A stretch of DNA of 64,000 nucleotides from an uncultured Phycisphaerales bacterium (GCA_903845195.1 CAIMWO010000031.1:69207-133206), one strand, 5' to 3'; counted from the stretch's first letter, positions 38,800 through 54,700 are shown. A program made the numbers and translations. Notes: generated by a model from the letters alone, not told the origin.

Positions 38800-38945
38800 C
38801 GAACGCCCACCGTCCTCATCAAGGGTGAACACGGATGCTGGGGCCTGTTGGTCCATCGCAACGAAGATGAGATGACAAGAAGACCACGATCTTAGAGGTG
38901 ACCGTCTTTTACGACAGACCCCAAAGACATGAAAGGAGATGTCAG

Positions 38946-39260
38946 ATGCGTCAGCAAACACCCCTCGAACAACTACACTTACCACCCGAAAAGATCCAGG
39001 CAATCAAAGCCGCGGGCATCACCTGCGTCGAAGAACTGTGTGCCAAACGGCTTACCGAGGTCGGCAACATTGTTGGCCGCACTATCGACGACATCAAGGA
39101 AGTCCGTGTGGCTTTAGCCGAACTTGGCTTGGACATACGGCGGCAATTTGAGGATCCAGCTGGCTCACCCGATATCCCCTCCCGCAAGGCGTTTCGTAGC
39201 CTTCTGGACCGCCTTGATCTGATGCCGCTAACGAGGGAAAAACAACGCTCCATTTACTGA
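38946..39260 (+). CDS. Small protein with an RNA polymerase alpha-subunit C-terminal-domain-like HhH motif.
   Basis: AAGGAG RBS. LHLPPEKIQAIKAAGITCVEEL matches the alphaCTD pattern LxLSxRxxNxLKxAGIxTVxDL. Confidence 0.4.
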   Translation: MRQQTPLEQLHLPPEKIQAIKAAGITCVEELCAKRLTEVGNIVGRTIDDIKEVRVALAELGLDIRRQFEDPAGSPDIPSRKAFRSLLDRLDLMPLTREKQRSIY

Positions 39261-39488: not shown

Positions 39489-39899
39489 ATGATTCCACTC
39501 GACGCACTTCACTTGCCTGATGAAATGCTACAGAAGCTCCGGGCTTTGGGTTACAACAGCGTTTGGGACCTACACGCGAGCAATAAATACACACTCCGAA
39601 TACGCTCGCGTCTTAGCATCAGTGCCGAAGAAGTTGACCAGATTGTTGCAGCCATGCGAGCCATCGGATGGGACTTTAAGGATCCAGCAGACGATCCGGT
39701 GGGTGCCGAAGACTTCCCCTCAGCAGTAGTCTTACGGAATTTACTGACCGCCCTTCGTCTTAATCCGCGGTCGAGCCGTTTCTTGAGATACTACTTGCGT
39801 GGTGTCAGCACATTGCCCGAACTGCTCAAGGGGATTGAGCCGGATGACACCGAAACGATTATCGGGCTTCTTAGGTTGATGAAGGTTGAGGATATTTGA
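39489..39899 (+). CDS. Paralogous alphaCTD-like small protein.
   Basis: AAAGGAG RBS. LHLPDEMLQKLRALGYNSVWDL. A second similar motif sits in the C-terminal half. Confidence 0.4.
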   Translation: MIPLDALHLPDEMLQKLRALGYNSVWDLHASNKYTLRIRSRLSISAEEVDQIVAAMRAIGWDFKDPADDPVGAEDFPSAVVLRNLLTALRLNPRSSRFLRYYLRGVSTLPELLKGIEPDDTETIIGLLRLMKVEDI

Positions 39900-40479: not shown

Positions 40480-40532
40480 ATACTCTTTGGATTAGGGGGC
40501 CATAGGTATCAATTATGCTTCTAGGAGAAAAT

Positions 40533-40793
40533 ATGTGGAAAATCAGTGATTACCAGTCGGGTAAGAATAATTCGGTAGATGAAATCGCCGCGTCAAACCT
40601 GAGGGTACGGACAAAACATCCTTTGAAGAATTTGGGCGTGAGGACCGTCGACGAACTGACGGCACTCAGTGCGACCCAGATCCAGCAGGCACGAAATGCC
40701 GGAGTAAATACTCTGCCTGATATCCAAGCCTTTCTGGCACATAGGGGTAAGTGTCTCGCCTCTCATTCGCTTCCGAAAATACCAAGCGAATGA
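40533..40793 (+). CDS. Third alphaCTD-like small protein.
   Basis: AGGAGAAAAT-ATG RBS. LRVRTKHPLKNLGVRTVDELTALSATQI. Confidence 0.4.
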   Translation: MWKISDYQSGKNNSVDEIAASNLRVRTKHPLKNLGVRTVDELTALSATQIQQARNAGVNTLPDIQAFLAHRGKCLASHSLPKIPSE

Positions 40794-41069
40794 TGTCCCA
40801 CTGGCAGCCAGATGACATTGGCATCAGACCTTTGGACATGGCGCTCTTCGTGGAGTTCAAGAACTTGCCGGGTGCGCCCCGGGGGCACAGTCGCACGTCG
40901 GTGAATCGCATGAATGTGCTAAAGGACAGAATTCCCCTACAGCTCAGCCAGGCACGGACAAGGACGGTTGGTCTAAGGCGTTGCGACGGACAAACCACAA
41001 CGGGCTCAATTCATGGGATGGAATTAGCGTGATGGCCGCGATTACTTTCAACTTGTTCAATTCATGATC

Positions 41070-43286
41070 CTATTTCACCTTCATAGAATCCCATAGCCGC
41101 TTGAAATCATCCCAATGTCTGTCGAATGTCCCGGCGGTTGTGGTTAGTGAAATCATCACGATCTTTCCGTTACTAACTGCCAAGACTTCTATTGTATGCA
41201 TCTTTATTCCTTTCGGCGCACGCTCAATGGTAAAAGCAATCGCCTCCGCGCCTGCTAAAGTGGTTTTTACAGGATCGGAATACTTTTCAGTTGGATTGTC
41301 TTTGTGGGCATTCACCACGATACGAGCATAAATATCCGCCGGACTATTATTAGGCCCACGCGATTGGAGCCATGAGACTAATATTTCATCATAAAGTCCA
41401 TCCACTGGTGGACCCGAAAAACGGAATCCTTGGCCGGCGGTCAACTGCGGGATACTCCGCTTGAAATTAGCTGGGTAGCTAAAGCTGATGTCATTGGTCT
41501 CATCGGCATAGTTCAGGTCTGGCTGATCCGTCGCTCCCGGCTGTCGGGCGAGAAGCCCTTTGAGAATTTGTATGGGATCATTTTGTTCGCCGGCGCCTGC
41601 CGGTGTAACAATGCCATTTTGCCGGTCTACAAGCGATTTCATCGCGCGGGTCTGATTGTCTGACAAAGCATTGGTTTCGTTTTGAAAGGTAAGCGCCAAT
41701 AGCTGATCTTCCTGAGTCTGCCTATTAGCTAGAGCCTGCCGATCCTGCGCCTGCCGCTGTAACAATTGATCCATTCGGTTTTTCTTTTCGGTAGCAGGGT
41801 CTACAACCACAACTTTGTCATGGTCGAAGCGAACTTTTGGAGATGACGCCGGTTTGGAGTTTAGAGCGTTTTGTTCTTGCGACTGCGCGTTCGCCAAGGC
41901 CGTGGTGTCTTTGCTATGCCGATTGACTATGTCGGCTTGACGCTGCTGCTGGCTCTTTCGTAAGTCGTCGCGAGACTGGGACTGTTGCAGTTTCAACGCA
42001 TCTATTTCACGATGATTCCGTGTCTGTTGTTGTCTGAGCTTTTCATCGTTTTGCTCGCGCGCGATGCGTTCCGCATCTTGATTCGCATCCGCATTATTGG
42101 AATGGTTGTTATTGGTCGATGGTATAATTTCTGGTGCGCTTGGCGTTCTATGTTCCTGCAACCATTTCTTAGCTACATCGTCGCCAAGTTCCGCCGCCTT
42201 CCGGAACCACTTGGCCGCTTCATCATCGTCCTTAGAAACGCCTCGACCCGCAGCGTACATGAAGCCGAGTTTTGTCATACCCGCGGGGTTGCCACGATCG
42301 GCTGCCTTCCGGAACCAGGCGACCGCTTTGGCATCATCATTAAGAACACCGCGAGCATTTTTGTACATGTTGCCGAGATTAGCCATGGCGATGACACTGC
42401 CTGCATCGGCGGCCCTCTGATACCATTTCACCGCTTCGGTATCGTCATTGGGAACACCGTGACCTTCGCCGTACATCCAACCGAGATAGCCCATGCCCTC
42501 AGCGTCACCAGCATTCGCAGCGTTTCGAACTAACTTGTACGCTTCGGTTTCGTCCTTAATCGTGCCGCGGCCGTTCATGTACATGTTGCCGAGATTAGTC
42601 ATGGCTGTGACATTACCAGCATCTACCGCCCTTCGGAACCACTTGACCGCTTCGGCATCGTCGTTGGTCACGCCGAGCCCGTCCCGGTACATTGAGCCAA
42701 GATTCATCATCCCATACGAATTGCCCGCATCCGCAGCTTTCTGGTACCACTTGACCGCTTGGACATATTCCTTCTGTACCCCAATACCTCTTTCGTAGCA
42801 GACGCCAACATCGTTAATTGCGAATAAGTTCCCTGAATTTGCGGCCTTTTGATATAAGTCGAATGCCTTAACGCAGTCTTTCGGCACTCCTTGGCCTTCC
42901 TGGTACTGTCTGGCGAGTCTCTCGGTTGCAATTGCATTGCGGGCGTCATCGTCTAGAGTTGCCGTTACGCCGGATTGCTGCGGAATAACCTTCTCAGATA
43001 CATCTGCAGTCCTATTTTGAAATATTGGCGTGGAATAATTTGGATTAGCCGTACCAATATGACGAGTCGAAGTCACAATCTGTAACAGGAATACAATTAA
43101 TAGCGGGAGGAGAATTGCTGCCCACATCGCGAGTATGAGCACTATTTTTAAGGGATGCAGAGCCGACGCGAATGGCACCGGAGCAAGCCCCACACTCTTT
43201 GCAGAATCGCGATGCGAACCAGATGGTCGCCCCTCTCCTGCCGCGGGTGAACTGCTCGATCTAGAAGTGTTTAATGGTATTGACAT
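41070..43286 (-). CDS. Sel1-repeat (TPR-like) membrane-anchored protein, last gene of the T7SS-like operon.
   Basis: 738 aa. AAGGA RBS. N-terminal TM. At least eight tandem Sel1 units (A.KWYRKAAEQGNA.AQ.NLG.MY..G.GV..D...A..W-type). C-terminal domain of ~200 aa. Confidence 0.65.
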   Translation of the reverse strand: MSIPLNTSRSSSSPAAGEGRPSGSHRDSAKSVGLAPVPFASALHPLKIVLILAMWAAILLPLLIVFLLQIVTSTRHIGTANPNYSTPIFQNRTADVSEKVIPQQSGVTATLDDDARNAIATERLARQYQEGQGVPKDCVKAFDLYQKAANSGNLFAINDVGVCYERGIGVQKEYVQAVKWYQKAADAGNSYGMMNLGSMYRDGLGVTNDDAEAVKWFRRAVDAGNVTAMTNLGNMYMNGRGTIKDETEAYKLVRNAANAGDAEGMGYLGWMYGEGHGVPNDDTEAVKWYQRAADAGSVIAMANLGNMYKNARGVLNDDAKAVAWFRKAADRGNPAGMTKLGFMYAAGRGVSKDDDEAAKWFRKAAELGDDVAKKWLQEHRTPSAPEIIPSTNNNHSNNADANQDAERIAREQNDEKLRQQQTRNHREIDALKLQQSQSRDDLRKSQQQRQADIVNRHSKDTTALANAQSQEQNALNSKPASSPKVRFDHDKVVVVDPATEKKNRMDQLLQRQAQDRQALANRQTQEDQLLALTFQNETNALSDNQTRAMKSLVDRQNGIVTPAGAGEQNDPIQILKGLLARQPGATDQPDLNYADETNDISFSYPANFKRSIPQLTAGQGFRFSGPPVDGLYDEILVSWLQSRGPNNSPADIYARIVVNAHKDNPTEKYSDPVKTTLAGAEAIAFTIERAPKGIKMHTIEVLAVSNGKIVMISLTTTAGTFDRHWDDFKRLWDSMKVK

Positions 43287-43298
43287 AATAATTCCTTA

Positions 43299-43508
43299 TC
43301 ATTCATATATGTTAAGCAGCGCCCGATTCATCTCCTCATCCAAGTCCTCCATGGCTTGGAGCAACATCATCGCGACTTGCTCACATTCTTGCCAACAATC
43401 GCGTTCGAACTTAGTTGCTGCCTGGTCGTTCCACTGGTCCTGTGTTGCAGCCCATTGTTTGGTAAGGCGTTGCCATTCGACGTACAAGAGTTCGGTTTGT
43501 TCGGACAT
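43299..43508 (-). CDS. Small acidic helical protein (~69 aa). Possible WXG-like or chaperone-like accessory protein.
   Basis: ORF track 43299..43571 starts at GTG. ATG at 43508 gives MSEQTELLYVEWQRLTKQW.... Trp-rich helical sequence. Confidence 0.3.
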   Translation of the reverse strand: MSEQTELLYVEWQRLTKQWAATQDQWNDQAATKFERDCWQECEQVAMMLLQAMEDLDEEMNRALLNIYE

Positions 43509-43571
43509 AGTTGTCTTCAGTCCAAGTCTATTACCACCATGTCTCTTTCTACTGCCAATAGTCCGTGCCAC

Positions 43572-43886
43572 TCATGGCGTCATGGTCACCCGATCATGGC
43601 CTCGTTTGAGTGATGCTTTGGCCGGTTCCGGCTCGCGCACGAGCCAATCAAGCGTTAAAATCGCAGCTATCGGATTCATGCCGTGTTCCCTCATCAATGT
43701 CTCAATGTTATAGCCCTCGATAATTAGGGGTGATATCTGACCACTCGTCCACCACAGCTCAAATGCCACTTGTAGGGCAGGGGCGAGAGCGGTGAGATCG
43801 GTAGCAATCAACTCCGCACCATGGGGGGGATAGCCGAATTCATTGGAAAGCCTCGCTAACAACACTTCTTTTGAAATCGATATCAT
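43572..43886 (-). CDS. Putative immunity protein (~104 aa) for the upstream HExxH toxin.
   Basis: ATG at 43886 is 1 nt after the toxin stop, with a perfect GGAGGAG RBS inside the toxin 3' end. Small cytoplasmic protein. Confidence 0.45.
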   Translation of the reverse strand: MISISKEVLLARLSNEFGYPPHGAELIATDLTALAPALQVAFELWWTSGQISPLIIEGYNIETLMREHGMNPIAAILTLDWLVREPEPAKASLKRGHDRVTMTP

Positions 43887-43887
43887 T

Positions 43888-44949
43888 TTAATCTCCTCCG
43901 AGGGGATAAAGACGCAGCCGAATAGCACTTGCATACGTCCACGCGTCCGCCTCAATAGGTTGGGCTTTGTAACGCGCCTGGCCATACTTCTCAGCCGATA
44001 GGTAGTTACCAGGTATATTGTTGTTTCGCCAGGATGCCACTTCTTCTACATTGGAATGGAACATTGGGTGTTTAATGGCATAGTGCTGATAAGCATGACG
44101 TCCTTCATGAGCAATAGTATCGACGGTTTCTGATATGTCGTCCCACATCTTGGTATTAATATGAATTGCATGCTCATCAAAATACCCATAAGTTCTGGAA
44201 TCCATCTTTTCGGCAACGACTGGCACTGCCGGCCGACCTTGGACATTGGCGAGTTTATATTCGATTTCCTGAACAACTGTAACCCTTTCCTCGTCATTGA
44301 GGCTGATCCAGACCTTCGGGGTAAGTTGTATCATCCCTCTAAGCGAATCAACACCCCGGTCTGAAATCACCGAGCCTGGCAAATCGGAACCCGATGTCGG
44401 ATTAGTTGCATCTGAATGTGATTGCGCAGCAGAAGTCATGTTGATTGCCGATGGCTGATTTGCACCTAGATTCGGTTTGATTGACTGATAATGGTTTATG
44501 GCATCAATATGCTGCTGGAGAATGCCTTGGGAGCGGGGCACATGCTCACCAGCAAGTTCGGCAAACTCCCTTGTTCGTCTCTGGAATTCCTCATAGGCGT
44601 CCTGTACTTGCCCCATTGCCGCCGTTAGATCGTCAACTCGATCCTGAGCGGGGCTTAGGTCATTCCGTAGTTCAGAACGCCGCTCGGCGTTGAGATCCTC
44701 GCCGGTCTCTTCATCGGGGCTATAGTCAAGCGACGCCAATTCATCTTTAATCGAATCTACGCGTGCCTGAAGGGAGTGTAAGGAATGCGTTAGCTCTGAC
44801 CATTTGCTTTGAAACTTCCTATCGTAGAGTTCCAAACAGGATGTACCGCGGTTTGCAAACAGTCCAAGCGCAGCATGAAGAGTTTCCAGCGCTTCCAAAC
44901 ACTGAATATTAACGCTAAGACTGCTGGAGGTTTCTGTCGACATTGCCAC
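43888..44949 (-). CDS. Polymorphic-toxin-like protein. N-terminal ~200-aa helical (LXG/WXG-superfamily-like) secretion domain plus a C-terminal zinc-metallopeptidase (HExxH) domain.
   Basis: 353 aa. C-terminal TIAHEGRHAYQHY (HExxH). N-terminus is helical with heptad-like spacing. The ORF track start is GTG at 44949, with an ATG 2 codons in. Confidence 0.5.
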   Translation of the reverse strand: MAMSTETSSSLSVNIQCLEALETLHAALGLFANRGTSCLELYDRKFQSKWSELTHSLHSLQARVDSIKDELASLDYSPDEETGEDLNAERRSELRNDLSPAQDRVDDLTAAMGQVQDAYEEFQRRTREFAELAGEHVPRSQGILQQHIDAINHYQSIKPNLGANQPSAINMTSAAQSHSDATNPTSGSDLPGSVISDRGVDSLRGMIQLTPKVWISLNDEERVTVVQEIEYKLANVQGRPAVPVVAEKMDSRTYGYFDEHAIHINTKMWDDISETVDTIAHEGRHAYQHYAIKHPMFHSNVEEVASWRNNNIPGNYLSAEKYGQARYKAQPIEADAWTYASAIRLRLYPLGGD

Positions 44950-44967
44950 ACCACAAATACATCCGGG

Positions 44968-45237
44968 TTATCGATGATACTCCTCTTCAATAATGCGGGC
45001 TTTTTCTCGGAGGTATGCGACGTATTTCTCACAGTCCTCGAGAAATTGCGCCAACTTCACCGTAGTTTCGTCCAGATCCTGTTCAAAGGCTCGATACTTG
45101 GCATCGCGCCACGCGTCCCTCAACATCCGAGCCTTGTTGATTACAGAAAGGTTCTTTCCCCGCATATCTCTACCGAGCGTCTCTAGTACATTGGCAAAAT
45201 TTCGTGCCGCTTCAGGGTCGAAAATCGCTTGTGACAT
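44968..45237 (-). CDS. WXG100-like small helical protein (89 aa).
   Basis: AGAGGAAG RBS. ~90-aa two-helix composition. Follows a clearer WXG100 gene. Confidence 0.4.
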   Translation of the reverse strand: MSQAIFDPEAARNFANVLETLGRDMRGKNLSVINKARMLRDAWRDAKYRAFEQDLDETTVKLAQFLEDCEKYVAYLREKARIIEEEYHR

Positions 45238-45251
45238 GGCTTCCTCTCTTT

Positions 45252-45548
45252 CTAAAGGCGAGGTTTGACACTATGAAACTTATCAATTGCCGCGGCGTCA
45301 TGTTCCAAGTCTTTCGCGGCTAAACGCCCGCTAACTAAAAATTTAGCCAACGATTGCCGTGATTTTGCAAACTGATCGCAGAATTGCTCATACCCATCAT
45401 CACGAAAGGTATTCCCCAACCAAGTGAGATCACGCCGAATAGTGGTGTCGAATTCTTCGACATTATCACAAAAACGGGCTAACTCACGTGCAAATCCTCG
45501 GATTTCTTCAGAATTGGCGTAAACCCGTTTGGATCCTGCATCGCTCAT
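45252..45548 (-). CDS. WXG100-family (ESAT-6/EsxA-like) protein (98 aa).
   Basis: AGGAGG RBS. Central W-x-G (TWLGN) between two helices. Size ~100 aa. ATGA overlap with the upstream ATPase stop. Confidence 0.5.
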   Translation of the reverse strand: MSDAGSKRVYANSEEIRGFARELARFCDNVEEFDTTIRRDLTWLGNTFRDDGYEQFCDQFAKSRQSLAKFLVSGRLAAKDLEHDAAAIDKFHSVKPRL

Positions 45549-48500
45549 GACGATCCTCCTTTAATTTGACTTGCGACCTGTCGAATCCACGCGAGGTCAG
45601 GCAGGCGGTAAGGTCTATATTTCTGAACTGGAGCATTTTGGACAGCATCCACAAAGAACATTCGGTGCTGCTTTCCTTCCAAACGTGCCGCGTCGGGAAC
45701 GTCGAGAAAAGCTCGCGATTCCTCTGGTGAGAGCGCTGCGGACGTCTTTAGTCCGAAATTGGCCATCGAGCGTTTGAGTGTCTTCACGGCGGTTGGGTGA
45801 GTATCACACCATGCCAAAACATGAATACCAAATTCTGCCCCATCCTTGAGGATGGAACAAAACAAATCGTAAAGACTGGTTTCCCGAACCGTACCAATGA
45901 CAGGAAAGCCTCCATCATCGGTTGGTCGTAAGTCCCGCGCGCGGTGGAGGCCTGCGATAATGAGATATGTAGGTGTTATGTCTTCTTTGCCGTCAATTCG
46001 CAATCGTATGCGGTCAACTATTCCCTGAAGTGCAGTGCGCAGCATTGGTCGGGAAAGTCTCTGAATAAAGTGGAAGTCAAACCGCTCACATATCTCGTCG
46101 ATCAAAGGAGGACATGGGCCATCGGGCGACGTAAAATCCAATAGATAAAATTGAGAAGCCTGTGGTACATTCTGTGCCATTAGTGCTATCCACGCAGAGA
46201 GAAGAACCCCCATCCCTTCAGACTCATCACGATTGAGTACCATCAAGTTTGCGTCAGTTTGATGACCCAATAGCACTGGAATCGGCCCTGAGAGATTTAG
46301 TGGCTCCCCGAGCCAAATTGTCGCCGCTCTTCCACGAGGACGGACAGACTTTGTTTGGAACATCTGGGTCAGCGGTTGGCATTGTTCCAAGTTCGGTGGT
46401 TCATCGGCCTCGAATACTATAGGTATACGATTACTGCCATCAATCGCCGCCGCGGCCTTTGCGATGCCTCGTACGTAAACTGCAATTTCTTCATTCTCTT
46501 TGGTTTTATCTTTATCATCTTTGCCGATTAGTGCAACTTGGAAATCTTCGTTAGCTTCGAGCCGGCCGCCATCCCCGTTATAGATTGCCTGGCCGGGCTG
46601 CGTGAGTTTTGATGCCACAAGTTTCTGCCTCGGCAACAATATTTCAGCATCAACATCGCTACAAGGTAATGCAATCCGCAAGCCCATCAATCCAAACATG
46701 CTGCTCAGTCGCGACATATCTGATCCTGCCAGTGTTTGAGTGACCAAAATTAGGTGTATGCCGAATTGCCGTCCTTGCTTTACTAGTTGGGTCAAAAGGG
46801 ACCGCGCTTGTTCGGCAACGCTGTCCTCGTTAGCGAAGAATTCTTGGAATTCGTCTGCGATCAAGAGAATCCGTGGGAGTACATCATCAGCAGATGCCCT
46901 ATTTCTATATGCGGCTACACTCTCCACCCCACCAGCGTTACGAAAAAGATCCATACGTCGGGTCATTTCCGCGCTAAGCTTTTGCAGAACGCTAAGTCCA
47001 AATTCTCGATCACTTTGAATGGCGATGACTTTTGCATGTGGTAAAGAATTCTGCGCATACGGTTTGAAACCGACACCGCCTTTGAAATCGATGAGATAAA
47101 GCTCTATTTCGTGGGGTGGATACGTTAATGCCAATCCGGTGATCAATACGTGCATTAATTTGGTTTTTCCGGAGCCGGGCTTGCCTATGACCAAGCCACT
47201 GTGCGTGGTACCGTTCCCTCCTAACGTGAGATACTGGAGTTGCCCAGCTTTGCCAGGGCCTAGTGGCACGCGGATATCGTTTGCCGTTGACGATTCGTTC
47301 TTCCATATGATGTTTGCCCCATCCAACCCAGCCTGTTTGAGCATATCAGCAAACGGCACCTCAATCTTCATGGCCTCCTTTGAAGTCGTGCCGGCCTTGT
47401 GAATGATGTCGTTGAATAATTCATCGCCTGGAGGTAGATCAGGTAGCACTTGAGCATCGAAGAGGTCTTTGTCCTGCCACGTTACCCCTTGGGGTCCCCA
47501 CTCTATAATGCTGGCAACTTTGTCTAATTCATTGAGATTGAAACCGTAGGGCGCAATCTCATCTTTGCTTACATCTCTGATAATTAGTGTGTAGACGCCG
47601 CATCGCTGCCCATTGCGAATAATGGTCAGCAGTCGATCTGCCGCCGCCTTGGAGAATCCACACGGGAAGTCGAAGATAACTAGGAATCGAAACGCCTCCG
47701 CGACGGCTCGTTGTTCAGCGTTGTAATTATTAAGTGTCGCATATTTGTTACGGAGCAGGTTGCTAATTACCCTTTCCATATGGCTAGTGAGTTCCGTCAG
47801 CCGCTGCTCAATGTCGCCAGGCTCAGTCCAGGGCTTTTGGTTAATCAATGACTTGTCATGGTCCCCTAGGGCGAGGAAAGACGCCACGTTCTGGCCTATC
47901 CCGACTGGATCGATAAACGTGAACCGTAATTTGCCCGGCGGCGTGTTGGCAAGCATCCGCAACATGACTGACTGCATCGCCTTCGTTGCGGCGTCTTTAT
48001 TGACACCTTCCGCTTTCAAAAGCAGGCAGCGATTGTCTGTAAAGGGAACGAGTGCTGGTAGTCTAAAATCGAGGTTCAATCTAGGAAGATGGGCCTTTAG
48101 AAACCGAGTATCAAGTACGAGTTGACCGATTTGTGCGGCGAAACCGGGAGATGGGTCTGGGGCCCATGTATTCCATACGGGATCGTCCCATTTAGCTCCC
48201 GCGTATTGGGAACGTGAGGTAAAAGAAGAGAATTCAACATAAAATTGTGCCGCTTTGGGCTTAAGCAATATTTCATTCCTAACCATTTCTATGGCATGGA
48301 GATTTACAGCTGCCTGAAAACCGTTGTGCATATTATTGTTGGCCTGTTCCATACAATTATTGAGACAGGCTTCTGCGACAGCCCGATGATGCTGCAATTG
48401 TTGATAGCGCCGCTCTGACCTGAAGGCGGCGTACCAACGTAGAGTGACCATGACAGCTAGATAAAGGATTGGTGCAAAACAAAGTGCAATGCAGACCGTT

Positions 48501-48970
48501 CCAATGAGTAAAAATATGTAGGGACTGATTGTCCCTTCATTAATTGGCCAGAGTGAAGGTTTTTTAATTCGGCAGATTGCATCCAGATCGGCCTTGACTG
48601 AATTGGCATATGTTGTGGCTACTGCCCAATCGCCAGAATCGCCGTGTGGATCGACTGTGGGCGCATGTCCATGATATACTTTCTGTAGTTCTAGGTATTG
48701 TATCGCTTGATTGTGCCAATCTGTTAATGCGGTTCGTATTTCATTTACCGCAGTTGTTGCGTTTTGATATTGAGCCTCGATGCTTTTTTTATCAGCGTTC
48801 AGCTTCGTATCCGCTGCATCTATTTGTTGCCAGTAAGGTTCCAGTAGCTCGGACTTAATCCGGCCAACTATGTTTTTGGCTTCTGATGGAAGTTCGAACT
48901 CGATTAGCCCATCATCGGACACAGCTGAGGACGCAGCCCTTTGATATCCCGTAGCTGATACTGGGTCCAT
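45545..48970 (-). CDS. FtsK/SpoIIIE-family triple-ATPase-domain membrane protein, EssC/EccC-like type VII secretion ATPase.
   Basis: 1141 aa. GAGGTAA RBS. N-terminal ~150-aa region then a TM segment ISPYIFLLIGTVCIALCFAPILYLAVMVTL. Domain 2 has canonical Walker A GKPGSGKT and Walker B LLIADEFQEF. Domains 1 and 3 are degenerate FtsK-like. Confidence 0.65.
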   Translation of the reverse strand: MDPVSATGYQRAASSAVSDDGLIEFELPSEAKNIVGRIKSELLEPYWQQIDAADTKLNADKKSIEAQYQNATTAVNEIRTALTDWHNQAIQYLELQKVYHGHAPTVDPHGDSGDWAVATTYANSVKADLDAICRIKKPSLWPINEGTISPYIFLLIGTVCIALCFAPILYLAVMVTLRWYAAFRSERRYQQLQHHRAVAEACLNNCMEQANNNMHNGFQAAVNLHAIEMVRNEILLKPKAAQFYVEFSSFTSRSQYAGAKWDDPVWNTWAPDPSPGFAAQIGQLVLDTRFLKAHLPRLNLDFRLPALVPFTDNRCLLLKAEGVNKDAATKAMQSVMLRMLANTPPGKLRFTFIDPVGIGQNVASFLALGDHDKSLINQKPWTEPGDIEQRLTELTSHMERVISNLLRNKYATLNNYNAEQRAVAEAFRFLVIFDFPCGFSKAAADRLLTIIRNGQRCGVYTLIIRDVSKDEIAPYGFNLNELDKVASIIEWGPQGVTWQDKDLFDAQVLPDLPPGDELFNDIIHKAGTTSKEAMKIEVPFADMLKQAGLDGANIIWKNESSTANDIRVPLGPGKAGQLQYLTLGGNGTTHSGLVIGKPGSGKTKLMHVLITGLALTYPPHEIELYLIDFKGGVGFKPYAQNSLPHAKVIAIQSDREFGLSVLQKLSAEMTRRMDLFRNAGGVESVAAYRNRASADDVLPRILLIADEFQEFFANEDSVAEQARSLLTQLVKQGRQFGIHLILVTQTLAGSDMSRLSSMFGLMGLRIALPCSDVDAEILLPRQKLVASKLTQPGQAIYNGDGGRLEANEDFQVALIGKDDKDKTKENEEIAVYVRGIAKAAAAIDGSNRIPIVFEADEPPNLEQCQPLTQMFQTKSVRPRGRAATIWLGEPLNLSGPIPVLLGHQTDANLMVLNRDESEGMGVLLSAWIALMAQNVPQASQFYLLDFTSPDGPCPPLIDEICERFDFHFIQRLSRPMLRTALQGIVDRIRLRIDGKEDITPTYLIIAGLHRARDLRPTDDGGFPVIGTVRETSLYDLFCSILKDGAEFGIHVLAWCDTHPTAVKTLKRSMANFGLKTSAALSPEESRAFLDVPDAARLEGKQHRMFFVDAVQNAPVQKYRPYRLPDLAWIRQVASQIKGGSS

Positions 48971-49314
48971 GTCACATTACCTCAAAGGATGATTACCCAA
49001 TGACGAGACTCTCCAACACCGGGGCAGGAGCAATTAAACATTGCCGTCTGCACCATCGCGACCTTCGGTTGGTCTAGAATAGAGCGGACCAGCCCAAGCG
49101 TCGGCGCAAGACCGCGGAATCCAGCACGTTTCCCGTTTGCGGGATATGAACAATGACCGTGCGGCCTGTCGGATTGTGGGAACAAATAGTGTTCAAACCA
49201 CTCAACACCGCCCGCCGATGCGGCAAGCTGCATGAAAGATAACACGGGCTTATGATTGTGCAAGTGGTACGAGTGGGAAATTGGGACTTTCCCACTTCTG
49301 GACCCGGAAATCTT

Positions 49315-49773
49315 CTAAGAACCGGTGCGCCGTTTAATCCATCGCACGGTGTAAACCCTGCGGCTGACTTGGGAATTATTGAACACCCGGCCATCCAAGT
49401 CTAGCGTGATCTCTACGCAGGGCCGATCAGCCGACAGGCCGGGAATCCCGCGGCACGGGTCGTTGATCTCCACGGGGTAAACCATTTTCGCCTGCTTCTC
49501 GGCCGCCTCGGGATTGTTCGGTTTCGCCAGCAATGTCCAAATCTTCCCACTCTGATCCTGGACGACCTTCGTGCCGCGGTCGAAGACGAAGACCTCCTCG
49601 CCATCTTGGTCCAACGATGGAAGCCTTGCCGGCAGAATGGCTCGCTCCGGTGCGTCGCGGGTAGACGCCGGGATCGTCGGTGCATTTTCGGGAAGCTTGC
49701 AGACCTTGAGTGTGACGCTAGTGGTAGCTGGCGGTTTGACCACGGCGCTGTTGATGTAGGGGGTGTGCAGCAA
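49315..49773 (-). CDS. Hypothetical protein (152 aa) upstream of the T7SS-like ATPase.
   Basis: ORF on the same strand. Overlapping alternative-frame ORFs make the call uncertain. Confidence 0.3.
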   Translation of the reverse strand: MLHTPYINSAVVKPPATTSVTLKVCKLPENAPTIPASTRDAPERAILPARLPSLDQDGEEVFVFDRGTKVVQDQSGKIWTLLAKPNNPEAAEKQAKMVYPVEINDPCRGIPGLSADRPCVEITLDLDGRVFNNSQVSRRVYTVRWIKRRTGS

Positions 49774-50119: not shown

Positions 50120-51440
50120 GTGTGCAGACGGAAGATCGGTTGTCTGAAACTGTTCGTGTGGCATCACCCTGCTTCTACGCCGCCTTCCTGTAATAATGCC
50201 GCATCAGTCCACCAAGGAATGTTCGGCACTTCACTTCGCCCTTCGCTGTTGGCCGTGGCGGCGGGGACTGACCGGGGAATCGAAGTGGCTCGTTCGACTT
50301 CGACTGATGGGGCCGGTGGGTGTTGTAAAACGCCACGGCCTGTCGAGCGATGTAATCCAAATGGGCCAAACTGAAACCGTAAAAGTGGTTCAGACACTCT
50401 CGCTTGAAATTTCCGATCCATGATTCTGCGAAGGCGTTCGCATCGGGAGCCTCGAACGGCGTCTTTACTACCTTCACGCCATCGTTCCGAAAAATGGTGT
50501 CGAATTCCTCCGAGAACTTCTTGTCTCGATCATGCAGGATGAATCGCTGCTCGATGCCCGCATCATCCAACCACATCTTCAGGTTGCGTGCTTGCTGACA
50601 CACCCACTCCTCCTCGGGATGGTACGTCGCAGGCGACAGGAACACCTTCCGGCTCTCAACATGGATGAACATCAAGAAGTAGGCCGTCTTCTTGCCCAGC
50701 GGCGTCAGCACGTCCTTGCAGAAAAAATCACACGCCACGAGCGTGTTCATGTGCAACTCGATGAACTTCCGCCACGGGGAGTCAGGGACTCGGTGGGCAC
50801 GACGATGGGGGTCAGGGTACAGCCCCTCCTTCTTCAGGATGCGTCGGATGGAAGATCGTCCCACCTTTTCCCCCAGCTTCCGAAGTTCCCCGGTTATCCG
50901 GTTGATGCCCCACCCAAGGTTCTCCTTGCCAAGCCGGATCACGAGGTCGATGAGTTCCTTAGCCAACTTCGGGCGGCCCACCTTCTTGGGCTGCTTCCCA
51001 TCTCGCTCTTCCCGCTGCCAAGTCCGGTAGGTTTTGAGGCTCACCACTTGGAGGGTATCTTGAACTGCATGGCTCAGTTCGGCACCGAGGGCCAATAACC
51101 GCTTACGGTCGGTCGGGTCGATGACGACCCGGTTGCCCGGCAATTTCTTACGCAGTATTTCGTTCTGGAGTTTAAGGAAACGGACTTGAGCATCACGGCG
51201 GGCCGAAAGGCTCTCCATCAGCATCACGAGAACCATATGAAACCACTGCGGCATGGAAAATGGCCTTTCAAAAAAAGAAGCCATAAACCCTGTAACGGCA
51301 AAGGCCCGACAATTTGGACCCTTGCTACGCAGTTTCAACTTACAACACGAATTGGGGTGGGGCGAATTTCTCCCTCAACTACCCTCATTTTCATGCAAAT
51401 CGTCCAACCTATGGACTAAGGCATCCCGAATCATGCGACA
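50120..51440. mobile_element. Insertion sequence (approximate boundaries) carrying the transposase above.
   Basis: Transposase ORF with ~50-100 bp flanks. Possible imperfect terminal inverted repeats around ~50135-50160 and ~51325-51350 (gaaactg / cagtttc). Boundaries not resolved by eye. Confidence 0.35.
50175..51338 (-). CDS. DDE transposase (integrase-core rve domain with an N-terminal HTH), single-ORF IS481-like type.
   Basis: 387 aa, TTG start. HTH GRPKLAKELIDLVIRLGKENLGWGINRITGEL. rve motifs ACDFF (D), LHDRDKKF (D), downstream E. Confidence 0.65.
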   Translation of the reverse strand: MKLRSKGPNCRAFAVTGFMASFFERPFSMPQWFHMVLVMLMESLSARRDAQVRFLKLQNEILRKKLPGNRVVIDPTDRKRLLALGAELSHAVQDTLQVVSLKTYRTWQREERDGKQPKKVGRPKLAKELIDLVIRLGKENLGWGINRITGELRKLGEKVGRSSIRRILKKEGLYPDPHRRAHRVPDSPWRKFIELHMNTLVACDFFCKDVLTPLGKKTAYFLMFIHVESRKVFLSPATYHPEEEWVCQQARNLKMWLDDAGIEQRFILHDRDKKFSEEFDTIFRNDGVKVVKTPFEAPDANAFAESWIGNFKRECLNHFYGFSLAHLDYIARQAVAFYNTHRPHQSKSNEPLRFPGQSPPPRPTAKGEVKCRTFLGGLMRHYYRKAA

Positions 51441-51760: not shown

Positions 51761-54700
51761 TCAGAAGTTCGCGTAGCCCCAGAATTGGGGTTCTAGGCGG
51801 GCTTCAATGGCTTCGTCAGAAGTACCGGTGGCCTGACGGTTGGACCAATAGAGGCGATCTTTGACTTGGTTGCCATCGTCAGTGGTGAGGAAGCCCCAGT
51901 CCATACGGAGTCGGAGTCCTTTCTTGGGTTTGAGGCCGAGGTCGGAAAGGGGGATGGAGGCTTCGACGGTGAAGTCGTTGCCACCGGAGGCGGCGACTTT
52001 GGCGTTCGGGAGTTCGACGACGCGTTGGAAAGCGGTTTCGCCACCGGCGGGGGTGTAGGCGCGCCAGGCTTCGGTGGCTTTGGCGCCTGGGGCGACGGGT
52101 TGATAGAGGACGACGCGCGGTTTTCCGGCAACCATGGAGATGAGGAGTCGCAGATCGCCTGCGACGGGCTTGGTGCGGGCGGGGTCGGCGTCAGGGCTGG
52201 TGCCGAGGAGGAGGTCGACGGCGGCGCCGGTCTTGAAGAGGCGTTGAAAATCGCCGCCGGAATTCTTAAACGGACCGATCCCTTTGGCGGTCCAGCAGAG
52301 ATAAAGATTCTTCTCGTCATAGGCCATGGAAAAGGTGTGCGGGTTGTCGTTGCCCATGGTGGCGCCGGCATCTCCCCATTCCTTGGGCTTGCGAAGACCA
52401 TCGATCTTGGGCGTTTCGCCATCGAGAGGATCGATGGCCTTGACCTTAAGGATGGAGGGCCGGCTTTCAACGAGCCTCCGGACCTGCTGCGATTCCCAGG
52501 CTTTGGCGCGATCGATATCGGCCTGGGTGACGGTGAAATCAGTGGTGACGCGTTTGAAACGGTCGAGGCCGCGGACTTCCATGATGCTCATGCTGGTGAA
52601 GCCGGTGATGATGTAGTATTTGCCGGTGGCCTCGGCGCGGGTGAAGAAGCCGTGGAAGTGTTCCTGTGAGCCGGTGAGCGGATCGACGCGCATGCCGGGC
52701 TTGATGTCGGGCATGGAGAGGAAGTGGGCGCGGGGGTCGGTTTTGTGAAGGAGGATTTGTCCTGCGAGGAGCCCGTCGGCGGTCCAGATGCGCCACTGCC
52801 CATCGTTGCCGGAGGTGACGACAAATTCGCCGAGATCGCCGGGGTCGGTTTCGTGTCCGATGATGCCGAACTCGTTGGCGACATCGCCAGCTTTCCATGG
52901 ATGGATGGAAAGGCCCGAGACGCCGGCGTTGGAGACGGGGTAGGACCAGAGGAGCTTGCCATTGGGATCGGTGACGAAGTTGCTTTCGGGCCCGTCGGCG
53001 CCGGGGTGACCGTGGAGGGTGAGGAAGTTGCCATTGTTGAGTTTGAGGAACGAGCCGCGGTTGGGCGAGGCGACGCGCTGGTAGACGGGCGAACCGTTGG
53101 GGAGGGTTTCTTTAACCTCGTAGCGTGCATCGGTACCCATGCATCCGAGCTGGGTGTCGAAGGGACCGAATGCGGGTCCTCGTTCGTCGTCGGCCTTGGG
53201 TTCAAAGGTGACTTCGTCGGGCGAAACCTTGCCGTCGCCATTGCGGTCGGTCCAGATAAACTTGAAATCTTCGGGGCATTTTCCGCCGAGGAGAGAGACG
53301 ATGGCGCTGGCGCGCAGGGGCGGGAAGTGGTCGGCGTTGCCAAAGGCGGCGACCATGCGCACGGGCGTATTGTCATCGGCGAGGTAGACGATGGGGACGG
53401 ATTGGCGGTCGTTGAGCGTGATGGGGACAGTCACGAGGTAGGTATGGCCATTGGCCCGGGCCGCGACGAGATCGTTACCGTAGAACGGCTGGACGAGCTG
53501 GCTGTGGATTCGGGAGAAGTTCTTGGCGTAGTCGATTTCGAACTCGGTGTTGCCGAGGTAAGCACGGGAGATGTCGTAACGGTTGAGAGTGCCGCCGCCG
53601 CCATAATGCGTACTGCCGGTCATTTCCTTGAGGAGCTTGCCGGTAGTGGCGTTGTATTGGAGGACGCGGCGCGGGTTGTCGACGCCTTCGACGATCCAGA
53701 GGCTGAGGTTGCGGTCGACGCACATGGAGATGACGTTGCGGTTGAAGCGCTGGGGGTCCCAGGGCCCGACCGCAGCGCCGCCCGGATTGCCGATGGTGTG
53801 GAGAAATCTTCCGGAGGTATCGAAGACGCGGACAGTGCCGTGGCCGACGTCGGAGAAATCCATGACATAGAGGTTGCCATCGGGACCGACGGCCATATTG
53901 GCGCATTCGACGTTGACGAGCGTGGTCAGTGCACCGGTGTCGGTGTTGACTTTGACGATGGAGCGGTGGTCGCCGTTGATGGCGACGAGCTCGCCGGACG
54001 GGAGAAAGCCCAAACCATGCCAGCCAAGGTGGACAGGGAGCTCTTTGAGGAGTGTGCCGGTAGTGCCATCGTGGATTTCAAGGCGTTCGTAGACGAGGGA
54101 GTCGATGGGGGGTTCCCCGCCGAGGTATTGGAGGGGCGCGACGCCGTAGATTTTGCAGCGGCGGGTGTCAAGGTTCATGATGTAGGACTTGGAGATATGC
54201 ATGCCGTGTTCGTCGCGGCCGTCATGACGGAGGCAGCCGCCTTCGGCGTTGTCCATCCAGGGCTCGACGATGCGGATGCGGACGGCGCGGGTGGTCTGGG
54301 AGGTGCGAACGCCATTCTCTTTGAATTCGACGTAGCCATCGATGTAGTTGGCGTATTGATTGTCATCAGCTTTGTATTTTGCGGTGCGGCGGCCGGGTTT
54401 GAAGGTGGCGACATTTTTCCAGCCGGCGGTGGTGGGGGAGGCGACGGGCGCATCGAGGGGGATGGTGCCATCGGGTCCGTTCCAGACGTCGATCTCGGCA
54501 CGAGCGCCATCAATTTCCTTGATCGCCAGGCCATCGATCTTCTGGGGGGTGGTCCATTCCATGAGATAGACGGCGGGTTTGTCCTCGCCGATGGATTCGG
54601 TGCGCTGGGCTTCCCATTCGCCGTTGGCAGTGGGTTTGCCGGAGTTGACGCGGATGGCGGCGGTAGTGGAGAGATCCTTGAAACGGCGGTTGAGGATGCG

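What the first reader, a model, noticed from the sequence alone, without database searches (positions are those of the whole stretch)
41070..48970. Type VII-secretion-like locus (EssC/EccC-like FtsK ATPase + WXG100 pair + toxin/immunity + Sel1 protein) in an apparently Gram-negative-type, Planctomycete-like genome
Seven co-directional genes on the minus strand, tightly coupled, with strong RBSs. In order of transcription they are:
- 1141-aa membrane-anchored protein with three FtsK/SpoIIIE domains (only domain 2 has canonical Walker A/B), ATGA-overlapped by
- a ~100-aa WXG100 protein,
- a second ~90-aa helical protein,
- a 353-aa protein with a helical N-terminal domain and a C-terminal HExxH,
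- an immunity-like gene 1 nt downstream,
- a 69-90-aa acidic protein,
- a 738-aa Sel1-repeat membrane protein.
The FtsK-SpoIIIE ATPase plus WXG100 pairing is the minimal signature of T7SS. These systems are characterised in Actinobacteria and Firmicutes and are barely described in diderm lineages such as this genome appears to be. No EsaA/EssA/EssB/EccB/D/E homologues are present. This could therefore be a minimal or divergent secretion apparatus, possibly using the Sel1 protein and the small upstream ORFs 48982-49773 as accessory components.
Basis: partly seen in the sequence, partly recalled or inferred. Interest (0 to 1): 0.8.

Follow-up and report, generated by a model that had tools for sequence, protein, structure and literature searches.

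The report
Minimal type VII-like secretion locus
A bacterium of the double-membraned PVC group (Planctomycetes and relatives) carries a stripped-down relative of the Gram-positive type VII secretion system with an exchangeable toxin-like cargo, belonging to a large family that has been noted in Gram-negatives but never tested.

Summary
The seven co-directional genes are real and placed as described. The 1141-aa membrane ATPase is much closer to EccC/EssC than to FtsK or conjugation coupling proteins, by sequence profile and by predicted structure. It has three FtsK-like domains, not the four of T7SSa-j, and only the middle one keeps Walker A/B.

The two ~90-aa genes belong to the WXG100 superfamily, in the Helicobacter HP0062 "W-R-D" subtype. 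The 69-aa acidic gene is a third, shorter relative.

In 80 related loci, 65 from Planctomycetota, the only conserved neighbours of the ATPase are:
- a ~90-aa WXG-like gene;
- a helical "middle" protein of 166-370 aa with a variable C-terminus;
- a ~70-aa WXG-like gene.

No EssA/B, EsaA, EccB/D/E, MycP or YukD homologue is present.

In the closest relative (L089, ATPase 69% identical) the middle protein has a different C-terminal domain and no following gene. The window carries an HExxH domain plus a 104-aa partner that travel together elsewhere. That is a cargo/antidote cassette swap.

The Sel1 protein and the upstream ORFs are not conserved. The LXG family test fails.

Verdict: a new variant of a known kind. 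Export itself, and any outer-membrane step, are unproven.

The parts
45545..48970 (-). EccC/EssC-like membrane ATPase, 1141 aa. It has N-terminal cytoplasmic helices, a two-helix membrane hairpin (~145-187), a long stalk helix to ~253, and three tandem FtsK-like domains (280-535 degenerate; 565-845 with Walker A/B; 880-1140 degenerate).
   Evidence: Pfam FtsK_SpoIIIE 1.9e-28. NCBIfam EccCa 3.9e-39, above EssC and EccCb, with FtsK far behind; all below the curated cut-offs. PDB profile search. AF2 model with pLDDT 84. Foldseek: EccC 4nh0 8.5e-29 over 968 columns. Internal hhalign: d2-d3 E=4.8e-15, d1-d3 E=4e-6. Hydrophobic segment.
45252..45548 (-). g2, 98 aa: WXG100-like helical hairpin protein. 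It is an extra paralogue found only in the ATPase-first subclade and is translationally coupled to the ATPase by an ATGA overlap.
   Evidence: Homologues sit directly after the ATPase in L001-L006 and L089 (71% identity). Iterated HMMs merge it with g3 and g6 into one family. It is a member of alignment A2, whose profile hits solved WXG100 proteins. On its own it has no Pfam hit.
44968..45237 (-). g3, 89 aa: WXG100-like hairpin of the HP0062 type. It has a W-R-D turn motif (AWRDAKY) and the family's conserved C-terminal ...EEY-x-R tail. It is the orthologue of the ~90-aa gene present in almost all related loci.
   Evidence: A2 profile versus PDB. 34 of 38 members hit Pfam WXG100. The single sequence gives only WXG100_2 at E=0.011.
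43888..44943 (-). g4, 351 aa: the 'middle' protein. Its N-terminal ~165-aa helical-hairpin domain is conserved beside the ATPase in most related loci. A disordered linker (156-187) follows, then a C-terminal globular HExxH domain (189-345; H279, E280, H283, E331 and D333 invariant).
   Evidence: Synteny and clustering. AF2 model with pLDDT 80 overall and >94 in the C-domain. The C-domain family consists of standalone ~200-aa proteins. Closest relative P0302: N-domain 61% identical, C-domain unrelated. Weak DUF6782 and SprT-like hits.
43572..43886 (-). g5, 104 aa: partner (putative antidote/immunity) of the HExxH domain, with its start one nucleotide after the g4 stop.
   Evidence: It is 31-52% identical to the gene that immediately follows each of three standalone HExxH homologues in unrelated contexts. 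It is absent from L089, where the middle protein has another C-domain. It is absent from all 80 related loci.
43299..43508 (-). g6, 69 aa, acidic: a short WXG-like helical protein (W...W-N-D...FE motif). It is the orthologue of the ~70-aa gene that follows the 'middle' gene throughout the family.
   Evidence: Pfam WXG100 E=0.0068-0.0078, below threshold. hhalign of A2 versus A3, E=1.8e-4, centred on the W-x-D turn. A3 profile versus S. aureus EsxA, 0.011. 69% identical to the L089 gene.
41070..43286 (-). g7, 738 aa: membrane-anchored Sel1-repeat protein (one TM at ~40-77, seven Sel1 repeats, a Q-rich region, and a C-terminal domain of unknown kind). It is operonic, with a 12-nt gap, but is not part of the conserved system.
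   Evidence: Sel1 1.2e-66. TM segment. No homologue in 80 related loci. In L089 the same position holds VWA and DnaJ-WD40 genes.

Best explanation
This is a minimal type VII-like protein export locus in a double-membraned bacterium.

Shown:
- An EccC/EssC-type membrane ATPase with three tandem FtsK-like domains, of which only the middle one is catalytically intact.
- Three WXG100-superfamily hairpin proteins encoded beside it (g2, g3, g6).
- A helical 'middle' protein (g4) whose N-domain is conserved, and whose C-terminal domain, together with the following gene, has been swapped relative to the closest relative.

Inferred by analogy with EccC/EssC, LXG-Lap1-Lap2 and EatA-TapA1/A2:
- The ATPase oligomerises in the inner membrane through its two-helix hairpin.
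- g3 and g6 (and g2) bundle with the helical N-domain of g4 into a composite helical targeting signal.
- The conserved C-terminal ...EEY-x-R tail of g3 is read by the degenerate C-terminal ATPase domain.
- ATP turnover in the middle domain drives the folded bundle across the inner membrane.
- The HExxH domain, probably a small zinc peptidase, is the cargo. g5 binds and neutralises it in the producer.

None of these proteins has a Sec or Tat signal, read directly from the sequences. The destination (periplasm or outside) and any outer-membrane step are unknown.
For: - ATPase identity: EccC/EssC models rank first and FtsK is far behind. Foldseek of a confident model (pLDDT 84) aligns 968 columns to the three-domain EccC cytoplasmic structure. 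Tandem-domain homology is shown by hhalign.
- WXG100 identity: the family profile hits HP0062, EsxB, EsxA and SAG1039. 34 of 38 members hit PF06013. g2, g3 and g6 converge to one HMM family.
- Conserved linkage: of 40 loci with enough flank, 39 have at least one WXG-like gene and 37 have the middle gene, all co-directional and abutting the ATPase. More than 592 species genomes carry the ATPase.
- Modular cargo: L089 has the ATPase at 69% identity, g2 at 71%, g3 at 72%, g6 at 69% and the g4 N-domain at 61%. Its C-domain is unrelated (DGRHR motif) and it has no g5.
- The HExxH domain and g5 co-occur as a two-gene module elsewhere.
- Other middle proteins carry other C-termini, namely DUF2380 and Imm33-like.
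- Tight translational coupling is visible in the sequence.
- Reviews define T7SS by exactly this ATPase plus WXG100 pair. They note untested Gram-negative examples (PMC10765036) and the same W-R-D protein with an FtsK/SpoIIIE neighbour in H. pylori (PMC3397514).
Against: - No secretion has been shown for any member of this family.
- No conserved partner could form a channel or cross the outer membrane. No EssA/B, EsaA, EccB/D/E, MycP or YukD is present.
- The ATPase has three domains, not the four of T7SSa-j (PMC11217815).
- All NCBIfam scores are far below the equivalog cut-offs.
- Most 'middle' proteins are short (166-240 aa) with no cargo domain, so toxin delivery cannot be the family's general role.
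- Chloroflexota homologues of the ATPase lack predicted membrane segments.
- The g4 N-domain matches no LXG or other T7SS substrate family.
- The fold of the HExxH domain could not be assigned.
- The HExxH+g5 module also sits beside HerA-like ATPases and in a toxin-antitoxin-rich islet. This fits an intracellular conflict role as well.
Confidence: 0.6

Rival explanations
1. The same proteins have a non-secretory job. The ATPase and its helical partners would form an intracellular, membrane-associated conflict or stress module. The HExxH protease would act inside the producer cell, for example in abortive infection or as a toxin-antitoxin pair, and g5 would be its antitoxin. The WXG-like hairpins would serve as adaptors or regulators rather than exported substrates.
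For: - The HExxH+g5 module occurs after HerA/DUF87-like ATPase pairs in L086 and L088, and among Gp49/HTH and BrnT toxin-antitoxin genes in L087.
- No channel or outer-membrane component is conserved.
- Some homologous ATPases lack membrane segments.
- Some family ATPases carry N-terminal fusions (S1, WD40, NACHT-like), as seen in conflict systems.
- The locus lies in a low-GC stretch next to an IS.
Against: - PADLOC gives only generic FtsK-domain matches (SspH, mad8, HerA) and nothing for the partners.
- The ATPase is specifically EccC/EssC-like and in this locus has a membrane hairpin.
- Every studied ATPase-plus-WXG100 pair is an export system (PMC10765036, PMC11217815).
- Fusing the HExxH domain behind a helical targeting-type domain is the layout of exported polymorphic effectors.
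Confidence: 0.25
2. It is a DNA translocase, either chromosome-segregation FtsK or a conjugative TraB/TcpA-type coupling protein belonging to a mobile element. The small genes would be unrelated passengers.
For: - The Pfam family is FtsK_SpoIIIE.
- Several database records name homologues 'DNA translocase FtsK'.
- An IS integrase lies 1.2 kb upstream and the locus GC is low.
Against: - FtsK and TcpA score 36-39 orders of magnitude worse than EccC in the profile search, and 16-19 orders worse by structure.
- No FtsK gamma domain, relaxase or other conjugation gene appeared in the Pfam scan of the seven genes and two upstream ORFs.
- The tandem three-domain layout is that of EccC.
- The small genes are conserved partners across phyla.
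Confidence: 0.03
3. It is an inactive remnant: a horizontally acquired, decaying cassette whose two degenerate ATPase domains reflect loss of function.
For: - Two of the three ATPase domains lack Walker motifs.
- Low GC and an adjacent IS.
- Accessory T7SS genes are missing.
Against: - The degenerate motifs are themselves invariant across 27 diverse homologues, for example F350/D354/P355/G359. This indicates selection.
- All seven ORFs are intact with coupled starts.
- Identical or near-identical copies recur in several metagenomes.
- The same architecture is kept in more than 592 species genomes.
Confidence: 0.07

Closest known systems
T7SSa EccC (ESX systems of Actinomycetota; T. curvata EccC, PDB 4NH0/4N1A; M. 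tuberculosis EccC5, 7NP7)
   Same: This is the best sequence and structure match of the ATPase. Both have an N-terminal two-helix membrane anchor without FHA domains. Both have tandem FtsK-like domains with one principal catalytic domain preceded by a degenerate one. Both are encoded next to a tandem pair of WXG100 genes.
   Different: - Three domains instead of four (DUF+D1+D2+D3).
- No EccB, EccD, EccE or MycP.
- The WXG turn is W-R-D.
- The host is a PVC-type diderm, not a mycomembrane organism.
- Scores are far below the NCBIfam equivalog cut-offs (135 versus 509 bits).
T7SSb and the T7SSc-j variants of Bacillota/Actinomycetota (EssC/TsxC + EsxA/TsxA + YukD-like TsxB; PMC11217815)
   Same: It has the defining ATPase plus WXG100 pair. 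Extra small WXG100-related genes lie next to a larger helical-domain effector, which has a variable C-terminal domain and a downstream immunity-type gene.
   Different: - All described variants have four NTPase domains and, almost always, a ubiquitin-like component plus further membrane proteins. None of these is present here.
- All described variants are from monoderm phyla.
LXG toxin with Lap1/Lap2 targeting factors (T7SSb; PMC9600955) and M. abscessus EatA with TapA1/TapA2 (bioRxiv 10.64898/2026.08.24.746431)
   Same: Both have the trio of one larger protein with an N-terminal helical domain and two small WXG100-like helical partners, encoded together. The variable C-terminal domain is neutralised by a neighbouring gene product. 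This is the working model for g3-g4-g6 (+g5).
   Different: - The g4 N-domain has no detectable similarity to LXG (PF04740) or any Pfam or PDB entry beyond coiled-coil noise.
- The gene order is small-middle-small.
- Most family members have no cargo domain at all.
Helicobacter pylori HP0062 (PDB 2GTS/3FX7) and its FtsK/SpoIIIE-domain neighbour
   Same: This is the top solved-structure match of the ~90-aa family (2.7e-12, full length). It has the same W-R-D turn motif, is found in a Gram-negative host, and is reported to cluster with an FtsK/SpoIIIE-domain gene (PMC3397514). It is a solved antiparallel four-helix-bundle dimer.
   Different: Its function is unknown too. Whether the H. pylori cluster has the middle and ~70-aa genes or a three-domain ATPase was not examined here.

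Membership tests
Type VII secretion system (generic definition: EccC/EssC ATPase + WXG100) | Membrane-bound FtsK/SpoIIIE-family ATPase of the EccC/EssC lineage | tested here: met
   Profile versus PDB: EccC 2.3e-50, EccC5 3.8e-41, YukB 3.3e-34, FtsK 1.3e-14. Foldseek: EccC 8.5e-29, EssC 6.9e-21, FtsK 1.3e-12. Membrane hairpin at 145-187.
Type VII secretion system (generic definition: EccC/EssC ATPase + WXG100) | WXG100-family helical hairpin protein encoded with the ATPase | tested here: met
   Met at the family-profile level: HP0062, EsxB and EsxA hits, and 34 of 38 members hit PF06013. The window's own g2, g3 and g6 each fall below Pfam's threshold when scanned alone. The turn motif is W-x-D, not W-x-G.
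Type VII secretion system (generic definition: EccC/EssC ATPase + WXG100) | Four NTPase-like domains in the ATPase (DUF/D0 + D1-D3), stated for T7SSa-j in PMC11217815 | tested here: not met
   The AF2 model shows three alpha/beta domains. hhalign confirms three related repeats. A protein of 1141 aa leaves no room for a fourth.
Type VII secretion system (generic definition: EccC/EssC ATPase + WXG100) | ATPase-dependent export of the WXG100 protein(s) | not testable with these tools
   This needs fractionation or secretome work in a carrier strain.
T7SSa (ESX) | EccB, EccD, EccE and mycosin MycP encoded with EccC | tested here: not met
   No such Pfam or NCBIfam hits in the seven genes or the upstream ORFs. 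No further conserved neighbour family in 78 loci.
T7SSb / T7SSc-j | EssA, EssB, EsaA (or Tsx equivalents) and a ubiquitin-like YukD/EsaB/TsxB protein | tested here: not met
   No hits in the locus. No conserved extra neighbour. Only the locus was searched, not the whole genome.
LXG polymorphic toxins (PF04740) | N-terminal LXG domain | tested here: not met
   g4 and 45 N-domain homologues give no LXG hit at E<=0.01, only coiled-coil families. The PDB profile search finds nothing specific.
Polymorphic toxin / immunity architecture (general) | Conserved N-terminal trafficking domain, C-terminal domain replaced between close relatives, cognate small gene co-varying with the C-terminal domain | tested here: met
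   P0302/L089: N-domain 61% identical, C-domain unrelated, g5 absent. g5 homologues follow three standalone HExxH proteins. Toxicity and neutralisation themselves were not tested.
Zincin-type metallopeptidase | HExxH helix plus a third ligand on a zincin fold | tested here: inconclusive
   HEGRH plus the invariant E331-x-D333. Weak DUF6782 and SprT-like hits, E=0.005-0.04, and SprT-like is on record for two homologues. The confident model found no significant fold match.
Sel1-repeat proteins (PF08238) | Tandem Sel1 repeats | tested here: met
   Seven repeats, E=1.2e-66. This is membership of a repeat class only and implies no link to the export system.
FtsK chromosome translocase / conjugative coupling ATPases | Best similarity to FtsK motor or TraB/TcpA; DNA-handling partners | tested here: not met
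   NCBIfam FtsK E=0.077. These families rank far below EccC/EssC.

The most novel reading that the evidence does not exclude
This four-gene cassette is a separate, ancient lineage of type VII secretion native to double-membraned phyla, mainly Planctomycetota but also Acidobacteriota and others. It consists of a three-domain EccC-like ATPase, a ~90-aa W-R-D hairpin, a helical 'middle' protein and a ~70-aa hairpin. It would work with the ATPase as its only dedicated membrane component. It would export helical bundles, sometimes carrying exchangeable enzymatic cargo, into the periplasm or beyond. If so, T7SS would no longer be a Gram-positive/mycobacterial speciality, and this would be a minimal model of how such a machine works.
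Probability: 0.4. Interest if true: 0.85.

Novelty: new variant of a known kind. Interest (0 to 1): 0.62.

Why it matters
Reviews up to 2026 still place T7SS in Actinomycetota and Bacillota. They mention Gram-negative ATPase-plus-WXG100 pairs only as untested curiosities (PMC10765036, PMC13492133).

This locus, with its more than 592 relatives in species genomes, gives that curiosity a defined and testable shape:
- a conserved four-gene unit;
- an ATPase with one domain fewer than any described T7SS;
- no accessory membrane proteins;
- in this window, a natural cargo/antidote swap that marks which protein is the likely passenger.

If export is confirmed, three things follow. First, the minimal requirements for type VII transport become accessible, because one ATPase might suffice. 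Second, it raises the question of how folded helical bundles pass, or stop at, a Gram-negative envelope. Third, it adds a secretion route to Planctomycetota, whose cell biology is unusual and whose secretion systems are little studied.

At least one carrier, Singulisphaera sp. Ch08, is a cultured isolate with a complete genome.

Tried and rejected
- **Phage defence.** PADLOC gave only generic FtsK/HerA-domain matches for the ATPase and nothing for the partners, so no defence system is assigned.
- **LXG or another known substrate family for the g4 N-domain.** The Pfam scan of 45 members and the PDB profile search found only coiled-coil noise.
- **Single-sequence PDB searches with ATPase domains 1 and 3.** Nothing relevant was found. 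Their FtsK-like nature rests on the model and on hhalign.
- **Combined alignments for modelling g4.** Merging N-domain and C-domain homologues (A7, A8) misaligned the two sets and was discarded. A4 was used instead.
- **Sel1 protein and upstream ORFs as components.** Sel1 has no homologue in any related locus. The upstream ORFs have no Pfam match and no conserved neighbour family corresponds to them.
- **RNA features.** There are no tRNA or Rfam hits in the window. Promoter and terminator scans were at background level.
- **Source organism.** The exact look-up gave no names, and the ATPase protein is not on record in the contig index. A conserved flanking protein resolved the taxon only to PVC level.
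- **Link between the window's other HerA/TrwB-like ATPase (15271-17736) and the HerA-like ATPases next to HExxH modules elsewhere.** No similarity was found.
- **Literature.** No paper in the held library describes this cassette in Planctomycetota. Sutcliffe 2011 and Unnikrishnan 2017 are not held and are cited only through PMC10765036.

Full report
**1. The observation**

The seven minus-strand ORFs exist as described. On a near-identical metagenome contig (L082) an independent gene caller produced the same set: 1141, 98, 89, 351, 104, 69 and 738 aa.

The junctions read directly from the sequence:
- The g2 ATG overlaps the ATPase TGA (ATGA at 45545-45548), behind AAAGGAGGA.
- The g5 ATG lies one nucleotide after the g4 TAA, behind GGAGGAG.
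- g7 starts 12 nt after g6.

Two gene models are refined. g4 is 351 aa from the ATG at 44943. g6 is the 69-aa acidic form from 43508.

The locus (41-49 kb) has GC 0.46-0.525 against 0.53-0.62 in the flanks. An rve_3 integrase gene lies 1.2 kb upstream, so the locus was probably acquired horizontally.

**2. The ATPase**

Pfam sees FtsK_SpoIIIE (1.9e-28). NCBIfam ranks the type VII models first: EccCa 3.9e-39, EssC 1.8e-26 and EccCb 8.2e-26. FtsK reaches only 0.077. All scores are far below the equivalog cut-offs.

A profile of 27 homologues (A1) was searched against all solved structures:

| Target | E-value |
|---|---|
| T. curvata EccC | 2.3e-50 |
| EccC5 | 3.8e-41 |
| B. subtilis YukB/EssC | 3.3e-34 |
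| FtsK | 1.3e-14 |
| Conjugative TcpA | 1.3e-11 |

The AlphaFold model is confident (pLDDT 84). It shows:
- N-terminal helices;
- a short two-helix hydrophobic hairpin (about 145-187);
- a long stalk helix;
- three alpha/beta domains (280-535, 565-845, 880-1140).

Foldseek's best hits are the three-domain EccC cytoplasmic structure (8.5e-29, 968 columns) and EssC/EccC D2-D3. FtsK motors come only afterwards.

hhalign on slices of A1 shows the three domains are homologous repeats: d2-d3 E=4.8e-15, d1-d3 E=4e-6. Only the middle domain has Walker A and Walker B. The degenerate loops of the other two are themselves invariant across the family.

The difference from every described T7SS is three domains instead of four (PMC11217815).

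**3. The small proteins**

Alone, g2, g3 and g6 give only sub-threshold hints. Their homologues in related loci settle the matter.

- phmmer and HMM iteration from any of the three converge on one family of 124 small ORFs in 66 loci.
- The ~90-aa set (A2) hits solved WXG100 hairpins over its full length: H. pylori HP0062 2.7e-12, B. anthracis EsxB 4.8e-11, S. aureus EsxA 5e-8.
- 34 of 38 members pass E<=0.01 against Pfam WXG100.
- The turn motif is W-R-D, exactly as noted for HP0062. That protein is reported to sit near an FtsK/SpoIIIE-domain gene (PMC3397514).
- The ~70-aa set (A3) is more remote: EsxA 0.011; 2 of 47 members hit Pfam; hhalign to A2 gives E=1.8e-4, centred on the W-x-D turn.

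The ~90-aa proteins end in a conserved ...EEY-L/H-x-x-R tail. I take this as a candidate export signal. That is an inference only.

**4. What is conserved around the ATPase**

The ATPase family is large.

The 80 best loci come from:
- 65 Planctomycetota, including the isolate Singulisphaera sp. Ch08;
- 4 Acidobacteriota;
- 6 Chloroflexota;
- 1 Betaproteobacteria MAG;
- 1 Cytophagia MAG;
- 1 Vulcanimicrobiota;
- 2 unclassified.

All ORFs within 8 kb were clustered. Apart from shadow ORFs inside the ATPase gene, only two neighbour families are conserved. One is the ~90-aa gene (57 loci). The other holds a 'middle' protein of 166-370 aa together with the ~70-aa gene (63 loci). All are co-directional.

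Of the 40 loci with enough flank, 39 have at least one WXG-like gene and 37 have the middle gene.

There are two gene orders:
- The usual order is small90 - middle - small70 - ATPase.
- The window, the Acidobacteriota loci L001-L003 and L005, L004 (Phycisphaerales), L006 (Vulcanimicrobiota) and L089 have ATPase - extra small - small90 - middle - small70.

Nothing resembling EssA/B, EsaA, EccB/D/E, MycP or YukD is present. No outer-membrane candidate is conserved.

**5. The middle protein and its cargo**

The N-terminal ~165 residues of g4 align with the middle proteins of other loci. They are predicted as a long helical hairpin. They match no LXG or other family. hhalign gives only a faint resemblance of the first helix and W motif to the WXG-like family (E=4e-4).

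After a disordered linker comes a compact domain (189-345, pLDDT >94) with invariant HEGRH and E-x-D.

Its homologues are standalone ~200-aa proteins. In three of three contexts examined, each is followed by a homologue of g5, 31-52% identical.

The decisive comparison is L089, the closest relative found:

| Gene | Identity to the window |
|---|---|
| ATPase | 69% |
| g2 | 71% |
| g3 | 72% |
| g6 | 69% |
| g4 N-domain | 61% |

In L089 the C-terminal domain of the middle protein is unrelated. It carries a DGRHR motif, and one relative has a weak ParB_N hit. There is no gene between the middle gene and the ~70-aa gene.

The window has therefore exchanged the C-terminal domain and gained its partner gene. 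This is the signature of a polymorphic effector with an antidote.

Other middle proteins carry DUF2380 or Imm33-like C-termini, and most carry none. The peptidase assignment rests on the motif and weak SprT/DUF6782 hits. The fold searches were uninformative.

**6. What does not belong**

- The Sel1 protein (seven repeats, one TM) has no homologue in any related locus. In L089 its place is taken by VWA and DnaJ-WD40 genes.
- The ORFs at 48982-49773 have no Pfam match, and no conserved neighbour family corresponds to them.

Both are probably local additions.

**7. Host**

A flanking DUF4159 protein finds only 35-47% identical relatives, named from Verrucomicrobiota and Planctomycetota. The window also encodes a BamD/YfiO-like TPR lipoprotein and PqiA. 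A PVC-type diderm is likely, but the phylum is not settled.

**8. Mechanism and rivals**

*Best explanation (0.6).* This is a minimal type VII-like exporter. The ATPase oligomerises in the inner membrane. WXG-like hairpins bundle with the helical domain of g4 to make the targeting signal. The middle ATPase domain powers transport. The HExxH domain is cargo, held in check by g5. The identities, linkage and cassette swap are shown. Assembly, signal recognition, export and destination are inferred by analogy with EccC/EssC, LXG-Lap and EatA-Tap systems.

*Main rival (0.25).* An intracellular conflict or regulatory module. The HExxH+g5 pair also sits beside HerA-like ATPases and in a toxin-antitoxin islet. 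No channel partner exists, and some homologous ATPases lack membrane segments.

*Minor rivals.* A DNA-translocase reading (0.03) and a decayed-remnant reading (0.07) are disfavoured and by the invariance of the degenerate motifs.

**9. Comparison with what is known, and novelty**

The pairing of WXG100 with an FtsK/SpoIIIE protein in some Gram-negatives has been noted since about 2009-2011. It is still called functionally unconfirmed (PMC10765036, citing Sutcliffe 2011 and Unnikrishnan 2017; PMC3397514).

The ten described subtypes T7SSa-j are all from Actinomycetota or Bacillota. All have four-domain ATPases, and nearly all have a ubiquitin-like protein (PMC11217815). No paper in the held library describes the cassette defined here.

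I therefore rate it a new variant of a known kind. It has the T7SS hallmark pair. It fails the four-domain and accessory-component criteria of every named subtype, and it fails the LXG test.

I score interest at 0.62. The system is untested, widespread and experimentally approachable, but its existence in outline was already suspected.

Noticed in passing
window 38898-39260, 39489-39899, 40515-40793 (+ strand): Three small paralogous ORFs with an RNA-polymerase alpha-CTD-like helix-hairpin-helix motif lie just beyond the Sel1 gene on the other strand. One of the gene calls in the equivalent region of L082 has a weak PF03118 hit. Their function is unknown.
   Followed up: no
window 50175-51338 (-) and 41000-49000: An rve_3 integrase/IS transposase lies 1.2 kb upstream of the ATPase. 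The whole locus has GC 0.46-0.525 against 0.53-0.62 in the flanks. This suggests a horizontally acquired island.
   Followed up: partly
L086:3186-8891, L088:2997-9157, L087:8001-9006: The HExxH-domain gene plus its g5-like partner also occurs as a free two-gene module. Twice it sits directly after a conserved pair of a 660-700-aa protein and a 910-980-aa HerA/DUF87-like ATPase (31% identical between the two loci). Once it sits in an islet of toxin-antitoxin genes. This may be a separate ATPase-linked system using the same effector.
   Followed up: partly
L089:3773-4798 (P0302); also P0306, P0311, P0318: The alternative C-terminal domain on the closest middle-protein relatives carries a DGRHR-type motif, with one weak ParB_N hit (E=0.012). 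It may be a ParB/sulfiredoxin-like nuclease-type cargo, and it has no adjacent antidote gene.
   Followed up: partly
L007, L008, L009, L015, L026 (Chloroflexota loci): The homologous ATPases in these Chloroflexota genomes are shorter (about 890-1025 aa as ORFs) and have no predicted membrane segment. The Planctomycetota and Acidobacteriota versions do have one. Some L008 and L009 ORFs may be truncated by contig ends.
   Followed up: no
one search hit list (e.g. P0027, P0036, P0053, P0061, P0104): Some ATPase homologues carry extra N-terminal domains on record, including S1 RNA-binding, ribosomal L7/L12 C-terminal-like, WD40 propellers, DnaJ and thioredoxin. This hints at varied regulation or anchoring in this family.
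   Followed up: no
window 15271-17736 (-): An 821-aa TrwB/HerA(DUF87)-like P-loop ATPase sits among a long run of ORFs without any Pfam match. It is unrelated to the HerA-like ATPases of L086 and L088. It may be another mobile or conflict element in the window.
   Followed up: partly
window 51761-56932 (-): A 1723-aa ORF has no Pfam hit at all. It lies in a stretch of GC 0.62 with strong positive GC skew.
   Followed up: no
L014:7202-8281 and similar ~355-aa middle proteins (L017, L059, L065, L073, L075): In L014 (Tepidisphaeraceae) the middle protein ends in an Imm33-like domain (E=1.7e-11). This is an immunity-protein-type fold in the position where the window has its HExxH domain. The similar ~355-aa middle proteins in five other Phycisphaerae/Pirellulales-type loci were not scanned. 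It is unexplained.
   Followed up: no
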